IMG/VR virus record: IMGVR_UViG_3300030328_001638
Coordinates: 3,140 to 67,139 of that record
Strand: one strand, 5' to 3'
Source: a virus
Length of the DNA: 64,000 nucleotides
Part shown: in pieces, positions 124-31,800 of the stretch
How the letters are laid out: every line of letters begins with the position of its first letter
How positions within the stretch are numbered: the first letter of the stretch is position 1
Made by a program: the position numbers and the translations under genes
The notes under the pieces: model-generated
The model's database searches: none
The model's input: only the letters and a program-made list of their open reading frames with translations
What the model was told of the DNA's origin: nothing

Positions 124-1409
124 AATTCAATGTTTAGTCCTATAGTGGATTTAAATATTTCTGCGTCCCAAAACTTAGTATATTCTCCTTCTACAAATAT
201 ACCTAATTTTGAATTAATGTTCCAGCCCGCAATTATTCCAAACTGATAGTCCTCCCATTGTTCTAATTCAGAGTCTTCTATTAAACCTCCAAGCCCCCAA
301 TTGTTTCTGTTTAAATAGCTAAATGCCTCATCTCCTTTAAAATAGGAATGATAAGGTAATATATAATTTGCATATGCATGTACCCATAGCTTGTCAGTAT
401 AGGTATAATAATCTGCTCCGATGATAGGGGCGTATTCGGCAAACGCATCTAATAAATCCCATTGCTCTCTATTATATCTATTCATTAAATCAGCAAATAC
501 TGTTTCTCTAAATTCTAAATCGGTATTAGCTACTATGTTCCCTTCAGGGTCTACCCAATACCAATCCGATATATTATTTCCTAATGCATCTTGCTGGGTA
601 TAATATATATCGTCATAACCATATTCAAATCCTAAAGTGTACCAAGGATTTAATGCTTGCCCATCCTCATTTGTTTCATTTAACCAAATCTCCACTGGAT
701 TATATCCAAAAGCTTGCTGATGAGTTCGAGCAATAACACCTGCAGAAATACTAAACTTTTTTCCAATTGGAAGTCTTCCTCTTACTTCTGCAGAATTATA
801 TTCAAAACCTACATTTCCTTCAGCTCTTGATTCTATTTTAACAATGTGATACTTACCCGTATTCCTAAGAAAGTAGCGGTGATTAGTAAACACCTCACCT
901 CTCTCTCTTTCTTTCTCCCAATGAAATAAATATTCCCAACCATCAAATGCGGCTGTGGGAGATGATAATGCTACATTTTTTTCTGTACCATCATAATAAG
1001 CTTTTTCTTTATTTTCATAATCAAATCTGGCTATACGTCTAATTCCTAATCCATACCTATAATCAAATTCATGATACTCGGTAGCGTCTTCAACCACAGG
1101 TACATCATATAAGCTTCCGCTTGGATTAGTTCTTACTACATAATCTATGGATTGTTTTTGGTATGGATTACTTATATCTCCTGCTATATAAAAAGTTCCG
1201 TACCTTAAAAGGTTTTCGTAAATGTTTTTAAAAAATTTACTTTTCTTTTGTTTTTTTTCAAACCCTTCTATAAGTGTTTGTTCTTGTGCTGAGTCTAATT
1301 CTTGTACAACTTGCCCTTGTGCTGCTATACAAAACAAGGAAATAAGTATTATTATTATTATATATATTATTTTAGAAGCAAGCTCTTCGGTTTTTTCTTT
1401 TCTATTCAT
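120..1409 (-). CDS. Putative outer-membrane beta-barrel protein
   Basis: N-terminal signal peptide, aromatic-rich alternating strands, C-terminal strands resembling a beta-signal (GIFVEGEYTKFW...STIGLNIEL). Confidence 0.55.
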   Translation of the reverse strand: MNRKEKTEELASKIIYIIIIILISLFCIAAQGQVVQELDSAQEQTLIEGFEKKQKKSKFFKNIYENLLRYGTFYIAGDISNPYQKQSIDYVVRTNPSGSLYDVPVVEDATEYHEFDYRYGLGIRRIARFDYENKEKAYYDGTEKNVALSSPTAAFDGWEYLFHWEKERERGEVFTNHRYFLRNTGKYHIVKIESRAEGNVGFEYNSAEVRGRLPIGKKFSISAGVIARTHQQAFGYNPVEIWLNETNEDGQALNPWYTLGFEYGYDDIYYTQQDALGNNISDWYWVDPEGNIVANTDLEFRETVFADLMNRYNREQWDLLDAFAEYAPIIGADYYTYTDKLWVHAYANYILPYHSYFKGDEAFSYLNRNNWGLGGLIEDSELEQWEDYQFGIIAGWNINSKLGIFVEGEYTKFWDAEIFKSTIGLNIEL

Positions 1410-3459: not shown

Positions 3460-3648
3460 TTATTTATTTTTACAGCCAAAATTATTTGCGTAGTTAGCCA
3501 TTTCTCTTACATGAGTAGAATACTCATCAGTATTACTCATAACATGGGAAGCTGCACTACACGCATCTTTAAAACCGTTTTTCTTAGCCCATCTTGTGAA
3601 CTTGCCTCGGTTTTTCTTTTTTATTTGTGGAAAAGGTTTTTGAGCCAT
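3460..3648 (-). CDS. Small basic phage protein (KGKFT..AK...ANFA.N type)
   Basis: ORF track; operon context. Confidence 0.7.
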   Translation of the reverse strand: MAQKPFPQIKKKNRGKFTRWAKKNGFKDACSAASHVMSNTDEYSTHVREMANYANNFGCKNK

Positions 3649-3649
3649 T

Positions 3650-3856
3650 TTATGATTTTAAATGATCATGAGTTTTCCATGTAGAAGTATGTCTATATCC
3701 CATTCCTGAATCAGCACCATATGCGTGGCCCCAATCTTTTTTAGACATTGCTTTAGATTCATCTCTTCTATCTTTTAAAGATTGAGAGTGATGACCTCTG
3801 TGTCGTCCGCCTAATGACTCATCGAGTCTTGCGTTATATCCTTGCTTTTTTGCCAT
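3650..3856 (-). CDS. Small basic phage protein
   Basis: ORF track; -7 promoter element upstream. Confidence 0.7.
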   Translation of the reverse strand: MAKKQGYNARLDESLGGRHRGHHSQSLKDRRDESKAMSKKDWGHAYGADSGMGYRHTSTWKTHDHLKS

Positions 3857-7996: not shown

Positions 7997-8007
7997 AAAC
8001 AACAATT

Positions 8008-8508
8008 ATGAATACTAAAATGAACACTTTAATGACAAAAATTACGAATGGCGATATGGCAAGATTATCAATCATATTGCACAGACATATCGTTGTGAAT
8101 AATCCTCAAGATTGTACAGAGGGATTAGAAGAATTAAATTCTAAACTAAAACAGATGGTTGAGAGCAATACTCATTCTCACTACTCCCTTGATATTCAAG
8201 GTTGTTCTGATGCACACAAGTTGCACGAGGGACAAACCATATCATTGGGTTTAGGAGTGAATAGATTAGAGGAGTTAGAGAAGGAATTTGAAGAATGGAT
8301 GAATGAGAATGTTTATCAGAATGTGGATGGTAGTTTCTCAACACAAGATGCACAATGGAGAAATAGAATCCAAACAAAGAATGAGTTGAAAAAATACTTT
8401 CTACGAGAGTTTAGAGAGTTGGAAGAGATAAGCGATAGAGAGAAAAATTACAATCCTAATGAAAACTATATAAGGGGAGGATTTAATCCATTTAAAACTA
8501 AATTATAA
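8008..8508 (+). CDS. Early hypothetical protein
   Basis: ORF track; stop codon forms part of hammerhead 1 stem I. Confidence 0.7.
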   Translation: MNTKMNTLMTKITNGDMARLSIILHRHIVVNNPQDCTEGLEELNSKLKQMVESNTHSHYSLDIQGCSDAHKLHEGQTISLGLGVNRLEELEKEFEEWMNENVYQNVDGSFSTQDAQWRNRIQTKNELKKYFLREFRELEEISDREKNYNPNENYIRGGFNPFKTKL

Positions 8509-8565
8509 CTGATGAGGATTCAAAATCCGAAACAAGATGATTGTGAAATTCTCTTGTATTATAAT
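8502..8565 (+). ncRNA. Hammerhead ribozyme, type I (HH1)
   Basis: ATTATAA-CTGATGA-GGAT/ATCC-GAAA-CAAGA/TCTTG-TA-TTATAAT; predicted cleavage GUA after 8558. Confidence 0.88.
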
Positions 8566-8583
8566 AAAAATAAAACAATAATT

Positions 8584-8802
8584 ATGAAAACCGAACACTT
8601 AACTTATGAATGGGAAATCTCTCCTAACAATATTGTAGAGATTGACTATACCTACTCTCAAGAGAGTGGAGACTATCTACAACCACCTTACGAAGAAATT
8701 GAGATAGACAGAATGACTTTAAATGGAGATGATGTAACAGATAGATTACACGATACATTTGAGTATGAAATTATAGAAGAAATTACTAACCAAACACTTT
8801 AA
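8584..8802 (+). CDS. Acidic early hypothetical protein
   Basis: Start reassigned to 8584; the upstream extension is ribozyme sequence. Confidence 0.7.
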   Translation: MKTEHLTYEWEISPNNIVEIDYTYSQESGDYLQPPYEEIEIDRMTLNGDDVTDRLHDTFEYEIIEEITNQTL

Positions 8803-8805
8803 ATT

Positions 8806-9273
8806 ATGACAAAACAAGAATTTTTAAACAGGGCGAAAGCTATTAATGTAAAAGAATCACGAGGACACGATGCACCTTCTTATGAATGGGACATCAAATT
8901 TGACAATGTCAAAGTATGCAATTGTTGGGATGATTCTTATGGTGGAGAATTAGAAATAAATAATTATAGCCATCATTCTATTGAGAAGATTTATTCAACA
9001 ATAGACAAAGACTCTTTATGGGATGAAAAATACCAATGGACTACTACACTTGAGTTATTAATGTCTGAGTTGCTTGATAACCATTACCGAGACAAAGATG
9101 CTAAAAAAGGAGTAGTGTTCACTAATGGGAAAATTAGAGGATACAAACACACCATCCCAACATTAATAAAAAGAGGAGAAGGTTTCTTGATTCAGGACAT
9201 TATTGATTCTGTCAAGGATAAATCTACCATTGTAAATCACGAATATTTAACTAACCTAAAATTTAAAATATGA
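8806..9273 (+). CDS. Early hypothetical protein
   Basis: ORF track. Confidence 0.7.
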   Translation: MTKQEFLNRAKAINVKESRGHDAPSYEWDIKFDNVKVCNCWDDSYGGELEINNYSHHSIEKIYSTIDKDSLWDEKYQWTTTLELLMSELLDNHYRDKDAKKGVVFTNGKIRGYKHTIPTLIKRGEGFLIQDIIDSVKDKSTIVNHEYLTNLKFKI

Positions 9274-9503
9274 ATCCATTTAAAATAACACCGAGTAAAA
9301 TCTCAGATTCAGTACAGAAGAATATCTCAATTCAATTGGAGTTTGCTATCAATCAAATTGCAAGTGATTTGGATATAAATACTTTTGATGAGATTGATTT
9401 AGCATTGACTATTGTAAATGACATTGATGCCTTGAAAAAAACTATTGTTCACGAGATTATGAAGCAATGTCATCAAGAGTATAATAGGAGAAAAGGATTC
9501 TAA
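9270..9503 (+). CDS. Early hypothetical protein
   Basis: ORF track; ATGA overlap. Confidence 0.7.
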   Translation: MNPFKITPSKISDSVQKNISIQLEFAINQIASDLDINTFDEIDLALTIVNDIDALKKTIVHEIMKQCHQEYNRRKGF

Positions 9504-9519
9504 CAATCCCTTACTCAAC

Positions 9520-9559
9520 ACCTTGCCTTGCATAGAGATATGCGAGGTTTTGGTGGTAG
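9520..9559 (+). promoter_or_regulatory. Structured RNA motif copy 1 (9-bp GNRA hairpin + TTTTGGTGGTAG)
   Basis: ACC-ttg-CCTTGCATA-GAGA-TATGCGAGG-TTTT-GGTGGTAG. Confidence 0.65.
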
Positions 9560-9595
9560 TAGGCAATAGTGCCTTAACAATTAAATAACAAAACA

Positions 9596-10294
9596 ATGAA
9601 ACTATTAGAATTATTTAGTGGCTCTCGTTCAATCGGCAAAGTAGCTGAAGCAAGAGGACACGAGGTATTCTCGGTTGATAATGTAGCTTATCCAAAAACT
9701 AATTGGGTAGGAGACATTTTAGATTGGGACTACCGATTAAATGAAATGGAAGTAGGAGAATTAGATGAATTCTACATTCCTGATGTCATATGGGCATCTC
9801 CACCTTGCACCGACTTTTCGGTGGCTTGTATTGGTCGTAAATGGGTCAAAGGACACGAATTTATGCCGAAGGACAATCAGCTTTTAGGAATCAAGATCTT
9901 GGAAAAAACTTTAGAAATTATAAAATTTTACCTTGAGAAGAATCCTGAATTAATTTGGTACATAGAAAATCCAAGAGGTAAAATGCGTAAAGCACCTCAT
10001 TTCCAACATATTTATCATAAAAGAGAAACCATTACATATTGTCAATATGGGGACTCCAGAATGAAACCTACTGATATCTGGACCAATGATATTGGATGGA
10101 AACCAAAACCTATGTGTAAAAATGGGGACACTTGTCATACTCCTGCACCGAGAGGTTCACAGACAGGTACACAAGGACTTAAAGGTAATCACGAACGAAG
10201 CAAGATACCATCTGACTTATGTCAGGAGATTATAGAATCAGCAGAGTTTGAGGTTAACTTTAAGGAAAACATATTACTAACAAAAACTAAATAA
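9596..10294 (+). CDS. C5-cytosine DNA methyltransferase
   Basis: LELFSG (motif I), SPPC (IV), IENP (VI). Confidence 0.88.
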   Translation: MKLLELFSGSRSIGKVAEARGHEVFSVDNVAYPKTNWVGDILDWDYRLNEMEVGELDEFYIPDVIWASPPCTDFSVACIGRKWVKGHEFMPKDNQLLGIKILEKTLEIIKFYLEKNPELIWYIENPRGKMRKAPHFQHIYHKRETITYCQYGDSRMKPTDIWTNDIGWKPKPMCKNGDTCHTPAPRGSQTGTQGLKGNHERSKIPSDLCQEIIESAEFEVNFKENILLTKTK

Positions 10295-10296
10295 CT

Positions 10297-10497
10297 ATGA
10301 AAAAACCGAAATTTAGGTTGTGGTGGTTTACAGATTGCAATAAAAAAGATGAGAGATTGCATTCTAAAGACTTTAAAACTTTAATAGAAGCTAAACAATT
10401 TATCAAAGACAATCAAGATTGTGTGTTTGGTAAATCTATAAGAGATGTTGTAAATAAATCTTTTATCAAACCATCATTACTAACTAAAACTAAATAA
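10297..10497 (+). CDS. Early hypothetical protein
   Basis: ORF track. Confidence 0.65.
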   Translation: MKKPKFRLWWFTDCNKKDERLHSKDFKTLIEAKQFIKDNQDCVFGKSIRDVVNKSFIKPSLLTKTK

Positions 10498-10499
10498 CT

Positions 10500-10880
10500 A
10501 TGAAGAATACAATAAAAGATGTTCAACAAGCTGAATGCAATTTAGAGCCATTACATTGTCTCAATTGTGATAGTACAGAAGTTACATATCATCAATATAT
10601 AGGAGATGCATATTGTTCTGATTGTGGAGAGTGGCAAGAGGACATAAGCGATAGAGAGAGATTAAGAAAAGAAAACTTAATTGAAGCTATTGTAAGTTTA
10701 AATGATGAGGATAGCGTACATTTTTGCAATAAATGGGATTTAGCTCATTATGGCGAAGAAGTTAGTGCGACAGACCATTTATATAACTATGCAACAAATG
10801 TTGTAGAGGGAGAGTGCAAAACTCTTGAAGATATAAAGGAAATGGAAAACTATTTAAAGAAATATAAATCACTTAACTAA
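10500..10880 (+). CDS. Zinc-ribbon-containing early protein
   Basis: CxxC-x15-CxxC. Confidence 0.7.
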   Translation: MKNTIKDVQQAECNLEPLHCLNCDSTEVTYHQYIGDAYCSDCGEWQEDISDRERLRKENLIEAIVSLNDEDSVHFCNKWDLAHYGEEVSATDHLYNYATNVVEGECKTLEDIKEMENYLKKYKSLN

Positions 10881-10892
10881 AACTAAATAATT

Positions 10893-11012
10893 ATGAAAAT
10901 CAGAGAATTCATACAACATATTATCAACAATCCTTTTCAGGTATTTGCTGAAGTATGTTTTTTAATCATATTGTTTTTATGCTTACTATGTGTATTGCAT
11001 ATATTTCAATAG
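10893..11012 (+). CDS. Small membrane protein, 39 aa
   Basis: Read manually; preceded by the junction repeat; hydrophobic C-terminal half. Confidence 0.6.
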   Translation: MKIREFIQHIINNPFQVFAEVCFLIILFLCLLCVLHIFQ

Positions 11013-11033
11013 TGGAGTGGGGACTTTGTCCCC

Positions 11034-11082
11034 TCTGTCGTAAGGTGTGTGCCTTGCCTGATGAAGCGAAAGCAGAAACAGA
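11034..11082 (+). ncRNA. Hammerhead ribozyme, type III, short variant stem II (HH2)
   Basis: TCTG-TC-GTAAGGT/GCCTTGC-CTGATGA-A-GC-GAAA-GC-A-GAAA-CAGA; predicted cleavage GUC after 11039. Confidence 0.75.
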
Positions 11083-11107
11083 AATAAAAACTTAAAACTA
11101 AATAATT

Positions 11108-11605
11108 ATGGGACAATATTATATGCCGATAAACAAGACCAAAAAAGAGTATCTAAATCCTCATACTTTTGGCAATGGACTTAAACTAATGGAATTCACA
11201 AGTGATGGAAGAGGAGTGTTACAAGGACTATCTCTACTACTTGCTAATGGTAATGGTAGAGGGGGTGGAGACCATCCAAGTGGAGACAAGCTGATAGGAT
11301 CATGGAGTGGAGACAACATCACAATTGAAGGAGATTATGCTGACAATTCACTATGGGATGTTATAGCTAAAGATGAGGACAAGAAGAAACCACAATGGAA
11401 AGATGTAAGCATACCTACATACAGACTCTTACTGCAAAATACTTGGGTTGGTAGAGAGATGGAAGAAAGAATACTTAAAAGTGGTACACAATTTATGATG
11501 CAAGATGAGAAAAAGTTAATGGAAGAGTTATTTCCAAAAGCTTGTGTAGAAGGAGATTTGCGACAGAAATTTGACTTTGTAGAAAAAGGACAATCTGATG
11601 AGTAA
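11108..11605 (+). CDS. Conserved phage hypothetical protein (MGQYY...GLKLME...G.WAGD...GDY type)
   Basis: ORF track; bracketed by HH2 and HH3. Confidence 0.8.
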   Translation: MGQYYMPINKTKKEYLNPHTFGNGLKLMEFTSDGRGVLQGLSLLLANGNGRGGGDHPSGDKLIGSWSGDNITIEGDYADNSLWDVIAKDEDKKKPQWKDVSIPTYRLLLQNTWVGREMEERILKSGTQFMMQDEKKLMEELFPKACVEGDLRQKFDFVEKGQSDE

Positions 11606-11651
11606 AGGTTTAAACACCTACGAAACACCTCAATTTGAGGTGTAATTGTTT
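11588..11651 (+). ncRNA. Hammerhead ribozyme, type I (HH3)
   Basis: ACAAT-CTGATGA-GTA..GGT/ACC-TAC-GAAA-CACCTCA/TGAGGTG-TA-ATTGT; predicted cleavage GUA after 11644. Confidence 0.88.
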
Positions 11652-11668
11652 AATTTAAAAATAAAATT

Positions 11669-11872
11669 ATGAGTAATTTAAGCTATTGCAGATTTCAAAA
11701 TACTGCACGAGATTTAAGAGATTGCCTAAACGCAATTGAAGATGGTCAGATAGATGACTTATCATTTGAGGAATTCAAAGGAATACAACAAATTCTGCAG
11801 GATTGCGAAACCTTAATGTTTATGAAGGAAGAGATTGAAGATGAGATAGGAGTAGAGCCATCCAGAAACTAA
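11669..11872 (+). CDS. Conserved small phage protein (M.N.SYCRF.NT..DL.DC type)
   Basis: ORF track; recognisable N-terminal pattern. Confidence 0.75.
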   Translation: MSNLSYCRFQNTARDLRDCLNAIEDGQIDDLSFEEFKGIQQILQDCETLMFMKEEIEDEIGVEPSRN

Positions 11873-11894
11873 TAAATAACTAAAATAAATAACT

Positions 11895-12224
11895 ATGAAA
11901 AAAGATTTAAATTATGAATCAGTAGGAGAGTATTTTGAAGATGAGTTAGGTACTCTTATGGACAAGTATATAATGGAAACAAGTAAATATCAATATGTCA
12001 ATGAGGATGGGGAATTATTTTTTGAAGATAACGACAGGATGGATAGATATTATGAGACTGCGTTAGCTAACTTAATCTATCTGCTAAAAAAGACATATAA
12101 TTCTCCTAAACTTGCTTGTAAAACGACAGGTAAAGTTATAAATAATCCTGACTATGTTGAAGATAAAGAAAAAGAGGTTTTTCAAAATTTTGGACAAGGA
12201 TATTTATACAGGATCACAAACTAA
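11895..12224 (+). CDS. Early hypothetical protein
   Basis: ORF track. Confidence 0.65.
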   Translation: MKKDLNYESVGEYFEDELGTLMDKYIMETSKYQYVNEDGELFFEDNDRMDRYYETALANLIYLLKKTYNSPKLACKTTGKVINNPDYVEDKEKEVFQNFGQGYLYRITN

Positions 12225-12592: not shown

Positions 12593-12667
12593 TGCGAGGT
12601 AGAGCAGTCAGGTCAGCTCGTTGGGTTCATATCCCAAAGGTCGCAGGTTCAAATCCTGCCCTCGCAC
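12593..12667 (+). tRNA. tRNA-Met(CAT), initiator-like
   Basis: TGCGAGG/CCTCGCA acceptor stem, GAGC/GCTC D stem, TTGGG/CCCAA anticodon stem with CAT, GCAGG-TTCAAAT-CCTGC T arm; no encoded CCA. Confidence 0.92.
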
Positions 12668-12953: not shown

Positions 12954-12994
12954 ACCTCTACCTCACTATGAAAATAGTGGGGTTTTGGTGGTAG
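12954..12994 (+). promoter_or_regulatory. Structured RNA motif copy 2 (9-bp GNRA hairpin + TTTTGGTGGTAG)
   Basis: ACC-tcta-CCTCACTAT-GAAA-ATAGTGGGG-TTTT-GGTGGTAG. Confidence 0.65.
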
Positions 12995-25872: not shown

Positions 25873-28800
25873 TTAATTATTATATCGTTGGTTTAAATAC
25901 TGCTGTCTACGCTGTTTCTCTAAATCTTTTAATCTTTGTCGCTCTCTATATTGCGGACTATTTCTTATAGCGTCTTGCTGTTGCTTGTATCTGAAATAAG
26001 CTTCAGGGTTATATCTTTTCATCTCCTCCACACTCAGCTTGTCTGCCTTTTTTTCTTTTGTTCTCTTAGCTTTTCTATCAGCGTCACTTTCCACGACATA
26101 CTCTGAATATTGTAATGCTAATAAAATAAATTCTTGTGGAGAAACATTTCCGTTTAATATTTTATCTGAATTTTTTATTAATCTATCTATCTGTCTGGTA
26201 GGTAACCCCAATGAGTTTAGTAAATCAAAAATAGCTTTTTTGTACAGCTCTTCTTTGGCTGCCTTACTTTTAGCTATAGCTTCAGGTTTACGAGGCTTTC
26301 CATTTTTATCAAATGGTGTTACATTATATTTGTCCGCTTTTTGCAATTCTTTGAAAAATTTAGCAGACACTTCTAATATAGGAATACCCCCCGAGGTTTC
26401 TCCTGTCCAAGGTTTTCCTGTCCACTTATCTCCGTAATAAGTAACTATTTCACCGAGTATAAACATTGCATTTAAATTGCCTAATACTCCTGCTCTCATT
26501 AGGTCTAAGTTATCTTCCTCATCCCATGGGGCTAATATTCCTGGTAAACCTGCGGCAACATATTGAAAGGCTATTGGTAATAAAGAATGGTAAACCATTA
26601 ATCTTCTTGCATTTTCCTTATATGTTCCTTTTCCTTCTTTACTTCCTGACATTGCTTTTCTATATATATTTATCGCAGCCATTAATTCTTGTCTAAAATA
26701 CTGTTTGATAGAAGTTTGAAACATATTTAAACCTCTTGCGTACCATGCGCCTGTTTGAAACTCATCTCTGTCTTGTAGGTCACTTGACTGCTGAGTCATC
26801 TTTGTGTCTCTTTCAAAAAGTCTTACCGCATGCTCGATAGCCTCTTGTTCGGTGGCTTGAGGATTGGCAGCTTTAAATTTATTTTTATAGTGAATATAGT
26901 TAGGTACTCCCCCTATTACTATTGCCCCTTTATCTCCTTGTTTTACCAACCACATCATGACATCTATAAATCTACCTTTCGCTCCTGCAGGAATAACACT
27001 TTTTACATTGCTTTCAGAATAAGACTCTAAAGTTCTTAATATACTCTCCCCATATCTATCTTGGATGTATACAGAATTATTTGATATTTCTTTCCATATC
27101 TTTGAGTATTGAGTAGCATTCATTGCCGCAAGTTTAGACCAATTTCTAAACCCAATAAATGCAGCGTATGCGGGAGCGGATGTTAACTGCTTGATAAATA
27201 TAGTAGGATTAATAGATAATTTACCTATGACAAAAGCAGTAGTTATGTTGTTTACCCATTCCATAGATTTCTCATTACTAACACCTCTATTACCTAATTT
27301 TGTTATCATATTCATAATGCTCTCGTACGGAGTTTTACCAAAATTAAATACAATTTGAGATTTAATATCTTTGTTCTTAAATAATTTACTCATATCATTT
27401 ATCACTTCACCCATTGAAGCAAAATAATTCATATCATTAACATAGGATATTAAAGTAGACATTTGATCCATATCGGCTATAGCCAGAGCATTATTCATCC
27501 TTACTTTTGTGGAAGCAGGAGCGGCAAAGTTTTTAAAAGCATTAGTTCCTGAAGACATTAACTGCATTATATCAGTTTCAGGATTTCTTCCTTCTCTATA
27601 TATTCTCCCTGCGTAATATTGATTCCAAGGCATTGAAGTTCGGTATATCTTTTTATAAGCCTCATTATACCCCTCATATAGTGATGGGAAAAATTCTTCC
27701 ACCTGCCAACGAGATAACTCTTTAACCTCATCGTTTAGCTTAGCTTCCATTTCCGCCATTATTCTTTTATAACCCTTCCCATATTTAGTTTCAAAAGATA
27801 ATTCATTGGCAGGGTCTTTATATTGTGCTACTAAATAAGCCATTTGATTTTGGCTTAACGGAGGCAGTTCTACTCCTGAATCAGTAAATATTCCTGTCGG
27901 CTGTATACTACTATCGTTTTGTGCTTTTGTTTGCCAATTTTTTCCATATACTTCTTCCAGCTTATTATTTATAGCTAAAGTGGTCATCATTTTTCGAGCT
28001 TTATATTCTCGTGTACCTTCGTTTACTTTAACAGAAGTAATTTTTTGTGTTTCATTTCCTAATATATCACCAGGCATTTTTCCAATAACACCCATCCATG
28101 TGGCTAAATCGGAGTTCATATATATAAAATTTCGTGTCGCTATTCCTAAATTCCTAAATGCCTGTACAGCTCTATTTCGTACCTTATTTTTTCTGGCTTC
28201 AGATATTAACCTTGTATCACGCAATAAAACCTCCACTTCTGGATTTTTAATTAGTCGTGGGTTTGCATTTGATTCAGGGAGAAGTTCATTAAAATCAGGG
28301 TTTTCTATATAAGACTTAACTCGCAATCCTGTAATATCATAATACAAAGTTTCAAATTCAGCCACATACTGTAAGTGTTTATCGAATAATTCTTTTTGCA
28401 ATTGAGTTTTCCCTGTCTCAACTAAAGAATTAAGATTATTCAACACATCGTCTAATGCTTCAGTTTTAGAAGTCTCTACATCTTGAGATAATTGAGCATT
28501 TAAAAAATCAATTACAATATTCAAATCAGCTATACTATTTCTATCTTTAGGTGTTAAGTCTGTTTGACTTTCTAATTTAGCTATTTCATCTAAAATTGCC
28601 TGCACTTTATCGTCTATTTGAGTGGTATCATTGAAATTAATTTCATTAATCATTGCTTTGATACCTTTAAGCCTTTTATGAACCTCATGACTTACCTTAT
28701 AGCCTTTTGGTCTACCTGCCTGTATATCTTCATACTTTCCATTAAGAATCTCTTCAATCTTGTTTGTTAAAGCTTGATTTGTTTTCTTATTAACAAACTC

Positions 28801-31800
28801 TACAACCTCAGCTTTTTTATTTTCTATATTTTCTAAATTCGCATTAGTTATACTTCTAATAAGCTTTACAACTTCAGGTCGAGAAAATACATAGTTAGGT
28901 AAAGCTTGTCTTATAAAGTTTCTTAAATCTCGCTTTACTTCATCTAATTCTTTTCTTCCTTTTACTCTTTGTGTTAATATTTGTTTAGCTCTTTTAATTC
29001 TTCCTCCAACATCTTGCAATACTGTACCTGAAAAGGCAGTTTTCATTTGCGCTATCATTTGAGCTTGTTGAGTACTGAATCCATTTTCAAAAGTTTCACC
29101 CTGATATTCAGGAGTACTTTCTAAAAACTCGACTGTCATTTCATCTATTTGACCTTGAGTATATTTATAAAGCTTTTTACCATCCTTCTGAGCTTTATCT
29201 TGAAGAGTATTAATTTGTTTTTGAATCTTTTTAATTTCATTATTTATCTTCTCAACTCTTTTTTTGTTTTTAAAAATTGTAGGTTGATCTAAATCTATTT
29301 TAAGCTTGTCTATTTTACTTAATAGGTTAGTTATTTTTTTACCCACAGGGGTAAGATTATTATTCATTAACTTATTTCTATAAGCCACAACCTTATCAAA
29401 TAGCTTTAAACCATTCATCATACCTCCTGCAATATTTCCAAAAGCCTTTGGTACATTCTCTAAAGTATATCCGCTTATTTTCATAAGAGGATTTATCTCA
29501 CTCATCTTATATTTTAATCCTTTTAAATAAGTAATAATCGTATTTTCTTTTATATTATTCATACGTCCTAATCTCACGATATCAATAATATTTTTAGACT
29601 CTCGTCCAATTTCATTAATAGATTTTTGTTTACGTACCGTTTTAAACGGATTAAAAAATCTACCATTTCTTTTAAAATAATGCCCTACTAATTCTCCACT
29701 TCTATACCCTTCTCTTATGTAAGCAGCATGTACTGTTAAACCTAATTCTGCTGCCGCTCTTTTTAAGTTTTGAATATTATAAATATTAGCGGGCATAAAT
29801 CCTTTAAAATTCATGTTGTAGTTACTTCCTAAATTTTGTGCGCTTTTTTGTTTACGCACACTAATAGTTCCTACTTTAGGTATTGCTCCTGCAGAACTCG
29901 ATACATTACTTTGTTTAAACTTCGTATCTCCTACTAACTTTTTAACTGATGTAGCAGGGGTTGATCCTTTATTAAATTTAGTGTAAGAATTAGTTACCTC
30001 AGTAGACTGATAAAATTCAGTTGGCTGATAAATACCTTCAATTTTTGCTTTTATCGTCCAACCAAAAGACGGGTGATAATCCACATCCCCTGGCTTAGGT
30101 TGTGAAATAACCATACTCTCAGGAACAAATTCTGTTATACCTATTAAATCAAATGCTTGACTATTTTTATTAGCAGGGTCTTCTAAACGGCCTGCAAATT
30201 CATTTTTGTTTTTTACACCTATTGCTTCTTGATATGCTTTGTTTGCTGATAGTTTATCATTTAATGCTTTTCTTAAATTAGGTGAAAAATTGTTTTCTAT
30301 ATTTAATCCTTCAACTATTTCTTTAATAGTTAAATCATTAAAACTTTTTATATCATTTCTCCCTGATTTCTTTTTGTATTGCTCAAAAGCTTTTTTCCCT
30401 ACCTCATTAGTCAATACTTCATTAAATACATTTTTCATTTCTTGTTCGGTCAAAATCTTGTTGTCTAAAGCTACATTTACCAAGCCTTCAAATATAGCTT
30501 GTTGAAATTGCCAAGAGTTTTGATCCGTCCCTCTATGAGGTATAAATAAATTAGCATCTCCTTGTAAGACATTACGAATAAAAGTGGCAGCCTGACTTTC
30601 AGTATTGAACGCAGCTAAATTAGATATATCCCCTAAATTTTTCCCTGCTCTTTCCATCATATCAGCTACATAGTTTTTTCCTCCATACAGCGTCATGCTT
30701 AGACCATTACCTAATTCAGTAAGTCCTGACATAGTAAAGTCATACATATTAGTAACAAAATTTCTTCCTGCAAAATCAGCTAAAGATTTATCTTTTATAT
30801 GTTTTGCAAAAGGTCTTTGGTCATTAGATATAGGAGGGGCTTTTCTTCCTTTTTGTTTTCTTTGTTGATTAATATTTATATCCGTACCAACTTGACCTCC
30901 TGTCCCTTGTTCTTGTTTTTGATTAAATTTAGTTTTCATATCCAAAGCTGCTATATCTGATTCAGTTATAGTCTCTCCTGTTTGAATTTTACCTGCTAAT
31001 CTATTGAGTAAATTAATTACATCTTGAGAAGATTGACCCACCTCTATACCTAATTTTTCTGCAATAGCCTCTATCCATTTTCTTATTTTACTTTTAGTAG
31101 GAGCATCAAACTGAGTATAGTTATCTGCTATCATTCCAAATATTTCTGCAAGTCTTTCTTCATTCTGTATTTCACTATCGTAATTTTTAATAAATTTCCT
31201 TAACTCCCCTCTTACTTCCTTTGGTATACTTCTACTTCTTACTAAAGCTTGAACCATACGTTTTGTAACTGCTTGAGCTAATTTGTCATTAAATTTTAAT
31301 TTATTAATTAATACTGCATGAAATATTTCATGACCTACGGTTCTTCCTGTAGCGTTTGCAAGATTAATATGAATAGTGTTGTCCAGTCTTTGATAAAATG
31401 CATTATCATTATCTTTATCTAATTTAGTATAAGAGTCCTCATCTCGATGTACTACTATTTTTAAACTTGGAAATATTTTAGCTACAGCTCGAGCTGCCAT
31501 TTTAGCTTGCTCTACAATACTTTGCTTGCCTTTAACTCTATTGTTAGGAGATGATGTAAAAGATAAGTTTTCACTTACTTCATTTACTTCTATATCGCTT
31601 TCTTTATTTTCGACATTAAATACTTTCTTTTTAGAAGTAGGGTTAGAGTCTATATCTTGATCTGATTTAGATTCAGGGTCTACCATAGCTTCAAAGTCAG
31701 ATAGCTCTTGACTATCTACTTCCTCTTCGGTCTGTACCCTGTCTTGACTCTCTGTTTCGGCTTCGTTCTGGTTTCCGATGTCACCTTCTCTGGTAGGATC

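What the first reader, a model, noticed from the sequence alone, without database searches (positions are those of the whole stretch)
8502..11651. Three hammerhead ribozymes punctuate the early transcript
Seen: three sense-strand CUGAUGA...GAAA cores, each with all three stems and a GUH triplet. They are HH1 8502-8565 (type I), HH2 11034-11082 (type III) and HH3 11588-11651 (type I). Their stems share no sequence, so they are not a recent duplication. All sit at gene junctions. HH1 and HH3 absorb the upstream stop codon and would cut 25 and 24 nt before the next ATG. Known: hammerheads occur in phage genomes, but their role is largely unexplained. Inference: a protein-free mRNA segmentation system, playing the role RNase III sites play in the T7 early mRNA, that unmasks A-rich start regions and sets per-gene stability.
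Basis: partly seen in the sequence, partly recalled or inferred. Interest (0 to 1): 0.9.

Follow-up and report, generated by a model that had tools for sequence, protein, structure and literature searches.

The report
Three hammerhead ribozymes between phage genes
Three small self-cutting RNA motifs (hammerhead ribozymes) sit between early genes of an uncultured marine phage and are conserved in its relatives, but this layout has been known in phages since 2011 and its purpose is still untested.

Summary
A descriptor scan of both strands finds exactly three complete hammerhead motifs, at the stated coordinates. In 1000 dinucleotide shuffles none had three; the strict descriptor hit nothing. 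Each belongs to a sequence class found in other viral contigs whose stems change compensatorily: 98.6% of cells paired with 12 of 15 pairs covarying, and 99.1% with 9 of 13. One complete relative carries nine in about 5 kb.

Rfam models miss all three, so they would go unannotated.

Cutting the polycistronic RNA into gene-length pieces is plausible, but it is the hypothesis already printed by Perreault et al. 2011 (PMC3088659). No RNA data exist for this phage. Predicted openness of the start regions is the same before and after cutting, so "unmasking" is not supported. Terminator-like hairpins also divide the region.

This scan has noted such arrays before on other DNA: 603 notes in at least 508 genomes.

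Verdict: real ribozyme motifs, a new member of a known kind, moderate interest.

The parts
8008..8508 (+). 166-aa ORF upstream of HH1. Its stop codon UAA (8506-8508) is the last three bases of HH1 stem I.
   Evidence: No Pfam or PHROG family. A partial homolog in relative G004 is also followed by an AUUAUAA-type hammerhead.
8502..8565 (+). HH1, type I hammerhead motif. Predicted cut between 8558 and 8559 (GUA|U).
   Evidence: Member of a multi-copy class in related viral contigs. It is part of the seed of model R1, so its 64.1 bits are by construction. Class covariation.
8584..8802 (+). 72-aa ORF whose ATG lies 25 nt after the HH1 cut. The longer reading from ATG 8512 starts inside the ribozyme core.
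10893..11012 (+). 39-aa ORF upstream of HH2.
   Evidence: A weak homolog in G004 is also followed by a hammerhead.
11019..11033 (+). Hairpin GGGGAC-UUU-GUCCCC that abuts the 5' strand of HH2 stem III. After the cut it would sit 6 nt from the 3' end of the upstream fragment.
   Evidence: In 10 of 17 distinct HH2-class copies the best upstream hairpin ends within -1 to 3 nt of the ribozyme. The control is weak: mean best stem 6.9 against 5.0 in shuffles.
11034..11082 (+). HH2, type III hammerhead motif with a minimal stem II (A.A, G-C, C-G, GAAA loop). Predicted cut between 11039 and 11040 (GUC|G).
   Evidence: Its 21-nt core plus stem II occurs in 63 viral-contig stretches, 104 metagenome stretches and 6 MAG contigs. 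Covariation of stems I and III. The minimum-energy fold is the hammerhead fold.
11108..11605 (+). 165-aa ORF bracketed by HH2 and HH3. Its last codons (S D E stop) are the HH3 core and the start of stem II.
   Evidence: 1364 homologs at E<=0.001, none named. No Pfam or PHROG family. Model pLDDT 82 with no PDB fold match at E<=0.001. Homologs in relatives are also flanked by hammerheads.
11588..11651 (+). HH3, type I hammerhead motif. Predicted cut between 11644 and 11645 (GUA|A).
   Evidence: Found independently by model R1, whose seed holds no HH3-class sequence: 37.3 bits, E 1.5e-8. Orthologs keep stem II and change stems I and III compensatorily. The minimum-energy fold is the hammerhead fold.
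11669..11872 (+). 67-aa ORF (phrog_8760, unknown function) whose ATG lies 24 nt after the HH3 cut.

Best explanation
The three elements are genuine, selectively maintained hammerhead self-cleaving ribozymes, transcribed as part of the plus-strand early-gene messages of an uncultured marine phage. Its nearest cultured relatives infect Flavobacteriia.

Inferred mechanism. As each ribozyme emerges from RNA polymerase it folds into the three-helix junction and cuts its own backbone after position H17, at 8558/8559, 11039/11040 and 11644/11645. The upstream piece is left with a 2',3'-cyclic phosphate and the downstream piece with a 5'-hydroxyl. Neighbouring cistrons therefore become separate RNA molecules.

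Where the ribozyme body ends up:
- With type I (HH1, HH3) the folded body stays on the 3' end of the upstream message. The next message starts about 25 nt before its ATG.
- With type III (HH2) the body stays on the 5' end of the downstream message. A separate hairpin (11019-11033) caps the upstream piece.

The likely consequence is that each gene's stability and translation become independent of what lies next to it.

What is shown and what is inferred:
- Shown here: motif, statistics, conservation, covariation, regular gene-junction geometry.
- Inferred from the family's established chemistry and from Perreault et al. 2011, who saw cleavage of other clustered phage-type hammerheads in vitro and in E. 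coli: that these copies cut.
- Inferred only: the benefit.
For: 1. Exactly three complete motifs, all on the coding strand. None of 1000 shuffles had three, and the strict descriptor hit nothing in them.

2. HH3 is found by a covariance model built only from HH1-class sequences of other contigs plus HH1: 37.3 bits, E 1.5e-8.

3. Covariation.
- 31 model hits from 12 sources (29 distinct rows, 14 of them seed sequences): 98.6% of 419 cells paired, 12 of 15 pairs changed on both sides, slid controls 29-42% paired.
- HH2 class, gapless alignment of 17 distinct sequences: 99.1% of 221 cells paired, 9 of 13 pairs changed on both sides, 0 of 500 shuffles reach this.
- HH3 orthologs keep the 20-nt stem II and swap stem I (GGACAAU, UAAAAUU, GAUUAAU) and stem III (CACCUC, CUCCCA, CCCCUC) together with their partners.

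4. Recurrence.
- Relative G004 (64,683 bases, CheckV 100%) has 8 model hits plus one HH3-class copy. That makes nine on one strand within about 5.1 kb if the record's two ends are joined.
- Of the 8 loci holding a homolog of the 165-aa gene, 6 have a hammerhead within about 100 nt upstream and 6 have one at or just after the stop. L003, L004 and L006 are near-identical, and L005 is cut off upstream.

5. Geometry over 91 distinct motifs in the fetched loci.
- Type I: 50 of 54 have a downstream ORF, the median distance from cut to ATG is 27.5 nt, and 37 of 50 lie at 10-39 nt. In 35 of the 46 with an upstream ORF, its stop ends 0-29 nt inside the ribozyme.
- Type III: the median is 75 nt, and 31 of 37 lie at 60-89 nt.

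6. Literature. Perreault et al. 2011 (PMC3088659, passages) report the following:
- clustered hammerheads flanking single genes in prophages
- cleavage of three tandem arrangements in vitro and of one in E. coli
- stem II of only two base pairs as common
- an active U.U mismatch at 10.1/11.1
- a halovirus hammerhead 13 nt before an early-gene start, with the transcript's 5' end mapped within 3 nt of the cut
Against: - No RNA evidence for this phage.
- No Rfam hammerhead model reaches its cut-off, or even E<=10 over 3.6 kb. Relatives reach only 21.9-28.4 bits against cut-offs of 34 and 48.5.
- HH2 lacks the usually conserved G10.1-C11.1 pair and has a 2-bp stem II.
- HH1 stem I is seven A-U pairs and is absent from the minimum-energy fold. 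Folding z-scores are -1.3 to -2.1.
- HH1 and HH3 have GUA where most relatives have GUC.
- No loop-loop or pseudoknot contact, which fast natural hammerheads need, was identified.
- The alignment was fitted to the model and includes its seeds.
- The loci were fetched through ribozyme cores or the bracketed gene, so they are not an unbiased sample.
- Cutting does not change the predicted openness of the start regions, so one proposed benefit fails.
- HH3 stem III with its tail also matches a terminator pattern.
Confidence: 0.6

Rival explanations
1. The ribozymes are portable junction modules for shuffling accessory-gene cassettes. Each one supplies stop codons, a structured end and a standard short 5'-OH leader, so a gene dropped between two ribozymes is expressed independently of its new neighbours, like a natural version of the synthetic RiboJ insulator. 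The repeated ribozyme sequences may also be where cassettes recombine. This extends the best explanation rather than excluding it.
For: - The same 165-aa gene is bracketed by a type III plus a type I ribozyme here, but by two type I ribozymes of different sequence in relatives.
- Genes shared by the window and G004 stand in a different order, and the methyltransferase is ribozyme-bracketed in G004 but not here.
- HH2-class copies stand before both GGAGG-type and A-rich leaders, and in MAG contigs labelled Bacteroidota, Rhizobiales and Coprobacillus.
- In DNA contigs of the same marine samples, likeness to the window starts at 11034-11035 and stops at 11084-11085, the edges of HH2, with unrelated flanks (table 7).
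- Within G004 the copies share stems I and II almost exactly and differ in stem III.
Against: - No recombination junction was mapped inside a ribozyme.
- Likeness limited to the ribozyme is also what strong purifying selection on a short RNA alone would give.
- Gene-order differences between mosaic phages are common without any special element.
- RiboJ is known to me from recall and from a search listing only.
Confidence: 0.25
2. HH2 and HH3 together release a 605-nt RNA (11040-11644) with 5'-OH and 2',3'-cyclic phosphate ends. A host RtcB-type ligase circularises it, giving a circular mRNA for the 165-aa protein.
For: - The bracket is exact here and recurs in relatives.
- Both ribozyme bodies stay on the released piece.
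- That these end chemistries are RtcB substrates is established knowledge (recalled).
Against: - Perreault et al. 2011 looked for circular or spliced products of clustered hammerheads and write that they detected neither (data not shown).
- In relatives the upstream ribozyme is type I, so its body is not retained on the released piece.
- No RtcB gene and no RNA data were examined here.
Confidence: 0.07
3. The motifs are repeats that spread and persist in phage intergenic spacers without benefit to the phage. Some copies, notably the AU-rich HH1 and the minimal HH2, may no longer cut.
For: - The classes are multi-copy within genomes and shared among otherwise unrelated contigs.
- The number per genome varies from 0 to 9 model hits among relatives.
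- Perreault et al. 2011 also allow that some copies may not be functional.
Against: - Compensatory change in all three stems with an invariant core shows selection on the fold, not mere copying.
- Position relative to the stop and the start is tightly regular.
- All copies are on the coding strand.
Confidence: 0.08
4. Chance resemblance, or (for HH3) an ordinary intrinsic terminator hairpin that happens to lie after CUGAUGA.
For: HH3 stem III plus its tail is listed by the terminator scan. Rfam reports none of the three.
Against: - None of 1000 shuffles gives three hits.
- Stem I, which a terminator does not need, covaries.
- The core is invariant across relatives.
Confidence: 0.01

Closest known systems
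Clustered hammerhead ribozymes flanking single genes in prophages (Perreault et al. 2011, PMC3088659; triple arrangement around ardA in Agrobacterium tumefaciens)
   Same: Several hammerheads of mixed types lie on the coding strand within a few kb. They flank single genes or short blocks whose identity is not constant. The same proposed role: cutting long phage transcripts into gene-length mRNAs. Short stem II and a 10.1/11.1 mismatch are also reported there.
   Different: Those copies were shown to cut in vitro and in E. coli, whereas these were not tested. Here the carrier looks like a virulent marine phage with Flavobacteriia-phage relatives, not a prophage. The copies fall below Rfam cut-offs. 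The stop codon is built into the ribozyme and the cut falls about 25 nt before the next ATG. I did not find these regularities in the passages I read, and I could not see the paper's figures or supplements.
Halovirus HF1/HF2 hammerhead variant before the early helicase gene (described in Perreault et al. 2011)
   Same: A hammerhead lies immediately upstream of a phage early gene (13 nt before its start codon). The 5' end of the transcript was mapped within 3 nt of the cleavage site.
   Different: That ribozyme has atypical core insertions and is a single copy. The three here have the consensus core.
RAGATH-1 hammerhead (Rfam RF03152)
   Same: It is the best Rfam match to HH1. The consensus is a type I motif with a short AU-rich stem I, a small stem II, a longer stem III and a GUC triplet (alignment).
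   Different: The score is 22.5 bits against a cut-off of 56.3, and only model positions 22-77 match, so the 5' part of that family's model is absent. HH1 is therefore not a member by Rfam's test.
RNase III processing sites of the phage T7 early mRNA (recalled, not checked in a paper here)
   Same: Works like: cuts between cistrons of a polycistronic early message, leaving structured ends.
   Different: Those are protein-dependent cuts in long double-stranded hairpins. Here the RNA cuts itself at a three-way junction and gives different end chemistry. A functional analogy only.
RiboJ and other synthetic ribozyme insulators (recalled; seen here only in the search listing)
   Same: A hammerhead in the 5' leader removes upstream sequence, so expression no longer depends on context. 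HH2, with its body retained on the 5' end of the downstream message, has that layout.
   Different: RiboJ is engineered from a plant satellite RNA ribozyme. No natural insulating role has been shown for phage copies.

Membership tests
Hammerhead ribozyme (Rfam clan CL00010) | Conserved core: C3 U4 G5 A6 N7 G8 A9 on one strand and G12 A13 A14 on the other | tested here: met
   CUGAUGA and GAA are present in all three, at 8509-8515/8529-8531, 11058-11064/11075-11077 and 11595-11601/11622-11624. These columns are invariant across relatives, apart from position 7.
Hammerhead ribozyme (Rfam clan CL00010) | Three helices around the core, with the A15.1-U16.1 pair and a non-G nucleotide (H17) at the cleavage site | tested here: met
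   Stems I/II/III have 7/5/6, 7/2/5 and 7/3(+3 after a bulge)/8 pairs. The triplets are GUA, GUC and GUA. Compensatory changes in relatives are shown.
Hammerhead ribozyme (Rfam clan CL00010) | G10.1-C11.1 pair closing stem II | tested here: inconclusive
   Met in HH1 and HH3. HH2 has A.A there. The same arrangement recurs in 63 viral-contig stretches. Perreault et al. 2011 report an active natural U.U mismatch at this position. A.A was not among the passages I read.
Hammerhead ribozyme (Rfam clan CL00010) | Score at or above the gathering cut-off of an Rfam hammerhead covariance model | tested here: not met
   No hit at gathering score or at E<=10 over 3.6 kb. RF00163 on the whole genome gives 0 matches. 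Best small-region scores are 22.5 bits (RF03152, cut-off 56.3) and 15.1 bits (RF02275, cut-off 52) for HH1, and none for HH2 or HH3. The relatives' clear copies also stay below cut-off, so this reflects model coverage rather than absence of the motif.
Hammerhead ribozyme (Rfam clan CL00010) | Tertiary contact between stems I and II (loop-loop or pseudoknot) needed for fast cleavage at cellular Mg2+ | tested here: inconclusive
   No complementary partner was found by eye. Loop 1 of the HH2 class (UGUGU) is invariant in 17 of 17 distinct copies, and stem II of the HH3 class is nearly invariant in 6 of 6. This fits a tertiary role but does not show one.
Hammerhead ribozyme (Rfam clan CL00010) | Self-cleavage giving 5'-OH and 2',3'-cyclic phosphate ends | not testable with these tools
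   No run on record as RNA holds the stretch, and the runs laid were DNA contigs.
Intrinsic (rho-independent) terminator, considered for HH3 stem III | G+C-rich hairpin followed directly by a run of U | tested here: inconclusive
   The scan lists 11625-11643 with the tail AATTGTTTAA. The tail is interrupted, and it is the covarying 3' strand of stem I.

The most novel reading that the evidence does not exclude
Phage hammerheads are standard junction parts of a cassette system. Accessory early genes can then be swapped between phages of different hosts at the ribozyme borders and still be expressed predictably.

A sharper corollary follows from the stop codon lying inside stem I or II. A terminating ribosome must unfold the ribozyme, so cutting would be gated by translation of the upstream gene.
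Probability: 0.2. Interest if true: 0.7.

Novelty: new member of a known kind. Interest (0 to 1): 0.4.

Why it matters
What clustered hammerheads do in phages has been open since 2011. This case does not answer that question, but it sharpens it in four ways.

- Three sequence classes, common in marine viral contigs, escape Rfam annotation.
- The layout is highly regular: the stop codon lies inside the ribozyme, the cut falls about 25 nt before the next start, and a capping hairpin precedes type III copies.
- One gene family is repeatedly bracketed by ribozymes of different types.
- A cultured phage-host pair offers a place to test the idea: Flavobacterium phage vB_FspP_elemoE_10-3D on Flavobacterium sp. 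BAL314. It carries one model hit, whose stem II pairs poorly by eye, and one descriptor motif in its small-gene region.

If the cassette-insulator reading were true, it would explain how phages keep shuffled accessory genes expressible. It would also supply natural insulator parts for Bacteroidota.

Tried and rejected
- Rfam: gathering scan of the window, permissive scan of 8300-11900, RF00163 on the whole genome and small-region scans. None reported a hammerhead above cut-off. I do not take this as evidence against the motifs, because the relatives' canonical copies also stay below cut-off.
- Nucleotide search of the phage collection with 8000-12000 found no match. tblastn with the 165-aa protein found no match.
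- RNA evidence: no RNA holder was listed among the 20 runs that hold the stretch or part of it. The four runs laid were DNA contigs and show no starts or ends. This says nothing about expression.
- Metagenome scan for contigs that begin at the HH2 cut: of the 80 stretches listed (104 found), none placed the core at the expected offset from a contig end. The scan was therefore uninformative.
- Start-site unmasking: tested by partition-function folding and rejected. Accessibility is unchanged by the cut.
- Function of the bracketed 165-aa protein remains unknown. There is no Pfam or PHROG family. The AlphaFold model has pLDDT 82.1. Foldseek found no PDB match at E<=0.001 and only two uncharacterised phage proteins in BFVD.
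- Type II permutation and core variants: none in the genome.
- The next-best R1 hit in the window (3629-3678, minus strand, 19.3 bits) lacks the core and was dismissed.
- The MAFFT alignment of mixed classes (A1) misaligned the 3' halves and was not used for counts.
- Pair counts were not run on the HH3-class alignment (A6), because gaps misplace the 3' strands. The covariation there was read by eye.
- The hairpin 5' of the HH2 class is only weakly above shuffles: mean best stem 6.9 against 5.0.
- Literature: four searches gave no paper that tests the function of phage hammerhead clusters. Subscription journals are not covered, and the supplements and figures of PMC3088659 were not seen. They may list copies like these.

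Full report
WHAT IS THERE. The window is bases 3140-67139 of a 67,139-base viral record that CheckV rates 100% complete. From about 7600 onward the plus strand carries a run of small genes, followed by recombination and replication genes. The primase/helicase-like protein finds its best named matches in phages of Flavobacterium, Nonlabens, Polaribacter, Cellulophaga and Maribacter. The DNA holders are marine and hydrothermal-vent metagenomes. A marine phage of a Flavobacteriia-type host is therefore likely. That is an inference.

THE OBSERVATION. Reading the sequence and scanning both strands with a hammerhead descriptor gives exactly three hits. The descriptor asks for the core CUGAUGA, a stem II hairpin, GAAA, an A15.1-U16.1 pair, a non-G H17 and a stem I, in type I or type III order. 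The hits are HH1 8502-8565 (type I), HH2 11034-11082 (type III) and HH3 11588-11651 (type I).

- The stems have 7/5/6, 7/2/5 and 7/3(+3)/8 pairs.
- The triplets are GUA, GUC and GUA.
- The cuts fall at 8558/8559, 11039/11040 and 11644/11645.
- The stop of the 166-aa ORF (8506-8508) is the end of HH1 stem I.
- The last codons of the 165-aa ORF (S, D, E, stop) are the HH3 core and the start of its stem II.
- The next ATGs follow the cuts by 25, 68 and 24 nt.
- No further copy exists in the whole genome, including core variants and type II order.

CHANCE. CTGATGA occurs 12 times in the window against 7.3 expected. In 1000 dinucleotide-preserving shuffles the strict descriptor never hit (observed 2). 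The version allowing a mismatch at the base of stem II hit once in 2 shuffles (observed 3). The loosest version hit in 28 shuffles, and never three times.

WHY RFAM IS SILENT. No hammerhead family is reported at gathering score, at E<=10 over 3.6 kb, or by RF00163 over the genome. In a 101-nt search HH1 reaches 22.5 bits with RAGATH-1-hammerhead (cut-off 56.3) and 15.1 bits with Hammerhead_HH9. HH2 and HH3 get nothing. The relatives' textbook-looking copies also reach only 21.9-28.4 bits. The models therefore cover these AU-rich, variable-loop phage copies poorly.

RELATIVES AND COVARIATION. The 165-aa protein found eight related viral loci. These carry hammerhead motifs beside the homolog.

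- Six of the eight have a hammerhead within about 100 nt upstream, one shows none, and one is cut off.
- Six of the eight have one at or just after the stop.
- L003, L004 and L006 are near-identical.

Exact-core scans of viral contigs gave 6 stretches for HH3, 2 for HH1 and 63 for HH2. The HH2 core also occurs in 104 metagenome stretches and in 6 MAG contigs of several phyla. Of the 63 viral copies, 51 complete all three stems under the loose descriptor.

A covariance model was built from 14 HH1-class sequences, the window's HH1 among them. It finds HH3 at 37.3 bits, E 1.5e-8. Nothing else convincing turns up in the window.

- On 31 hits from 12 sources, 98.6% of cells pair, 12 of 15 pairs change on both sides, and slid controls pair 29-42%. 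This alignment is fitted to the model and includes its seeds.
- The HH2 class aligns without gaps. In 17 distinct sequences 99.1% of cells pair, 9 of 13 pairs change on both sides, and 0 of 500 shuffles reach this. Stem II and the core were fixed by the search. Loop 1 (UGUGU) is invariant.
- HH3 orthologs keep a 20-nt stem II and exchange stems I and III compensatorily.

ARRAYS. Relative G004 (64,683 bases, CheckV 100%) has eight model hits plus one HH3-class copy. All are on one strand and lie within about 5.1 kb if its two ends are joined. In six of the nine the upstream stop lies 6-20 nt inside the ribozyme. In eight of the nine the next ATG follows the cut by 13-29 nt.

Over 91 distinct motifs in the loci held at that point, the pattern is as follows.

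- Type I copies cut a median 27.5 nt before the next ATG, with 37 of 50 at 10-39 nt.
- In 35 of the 46 type I copies that have an upstream ORF, its stop ends 0-29 nt inside the ribozyme.
- Type III copies cut a median 75 nt before the ATG, with 31 of 37 at 60-89 nt.
- These loci were fetched through the ribozymes or the bracketed gene, so the sample is biased.

MECHANISM. By the family's established chemistry, each copy should cut after H17. With type I, the folded ribozyme stays on the 3' end of the upstream message, and the downstream message begins with a 5'-OH and a short A-rich leader. With type III, the body stays on the 5' end of the downstream message. A hairpin (11019-11033) abuts HH2 on its 5' side. 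In 10 of 17 distinct class members the best upstream hairpin ends within -1 to 3 nt of the ribozyme, though the shuffle control is weak.

The message of the 165-aa gene would thus keep a ribozyme body at both ends. I infer that the benefit is to uncouple the fates of neighbouring cistrons.

The region is also not one uninterrupted transcript on the face of it. Two hairpin-UUUUGGUGGUAG elements (9548 and 12983) look like terminators.

WHAT IS KNOWN. Perreault et al. 2011 (PMC3088659; passages read) report the following.

- Three tandem arrangements cut in vitro and one cut in E. coli.
- Circular or spliced products were not detected.
- Two-base-pair stems II are common.
- A halovirus copy lies 13 nt before an early gene's start.

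The 2019 review PMC6765202 (passages) still treats the role as a suggestion. Four literature searches gave no functional test. This scan has itself noted such arrays many times on other DNA: 603 notes in at least 508 genomes, some with 17-30 copies.

WHAT GOES BEYOND THE KNOWN. All of the following is inference.

- The same gene family is bracketed by ribozymes of different type and sequence in different phages.
- Genes shared with G004 stand in a different order, and the methyltransferase is bracketed there but not here.
- HH2-class copies precede both GGAGG-type and A-rich leaders.
- In marine DNA contigs, likeness to the window starts and stops at the edges of HH2.

These points fit ribozymes acting as portable, context-insulating junction parts. 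They do not prove it.

VERDICT. The case is a new member of a known kind. I put about 0.95 on the motifs being real and under selection, about 0.8 on their cutting in vivo, and about 0.5 on the stated benefit. Overall confidence in the explanation is 0.6. Interest is 0.4.

Noticed in passing
window 9520-9560 and 12955-12994: Two copies of a 9-bp GNRA-loop hairpin followed by the identical 12-mer TTTTGGTGGTAG, each about 35-40 nt before the next ATG. The hairpin stems differ between the copies. They look like terminators, or terminator-promoter junctions, that divide the early region.
   Followed up: partly
window 8512-8514: The AUG inside the HH1 core (CUG AUG A) is in frame with the downstream 72-aa gene, giving a 96-aa ORF 8512-8802. 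An uncut transcript could in principle yield an N-terminally extended protein, and the cut removes that start.
   Followed up: no
window 12593-12667: A tRNA gene (66.2 bits) lies in the same plus-strand gene run, about 1 kb after HH3. Relatives L003, L004 and L006 also carry a tRNA about 1.2 kb before their ribozyme pair.
   Followed up: no
L079/L080 (relative G004, record positions 60232-64683 and 249-669, minus strand): Nine hammerhead motifs lie within about 5.1 kb, one per junction of small genes. Copies share stems I and II almost exactly and differ in stem III.
   Followed up: partly
L084 (MT497078.1, Flavobacterium phage vB_FspP_elemoE_10-3D), record 27080-27187 and about 28913-28967: A small annotated plus-strand CDS (phanotate41) overlies a model hit on the minus strand (30 bits, E 2.6e-6) and may be a spurious call. 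That hit's stem II pairs poorly by eye. A type III-like motif with core CUGAAGA lies just upstream of the first gene of the leftward small-gene run. Neither is annotated in the record.
   Followed up: partly
window 11108-11605: The ribozyme-bracketed 165-aa protein belongs to a large unnamed family: 1364 proteins at E<=0.001, with invariant N-terminal MGQ and GDYA-like motifs. The predicted fold is confident, but Foldseek finds no PDB match.
   Followed up: partly
window 11034-11085, contigs of runs X3, X5 and X6: DNA contigs from the same kinds of marine sample match the window only across HH2 and have unrelated sequence on both sides. The ribozyme is therefore shared among otherwise unrelated phages (table 7).
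   Followed up: partly
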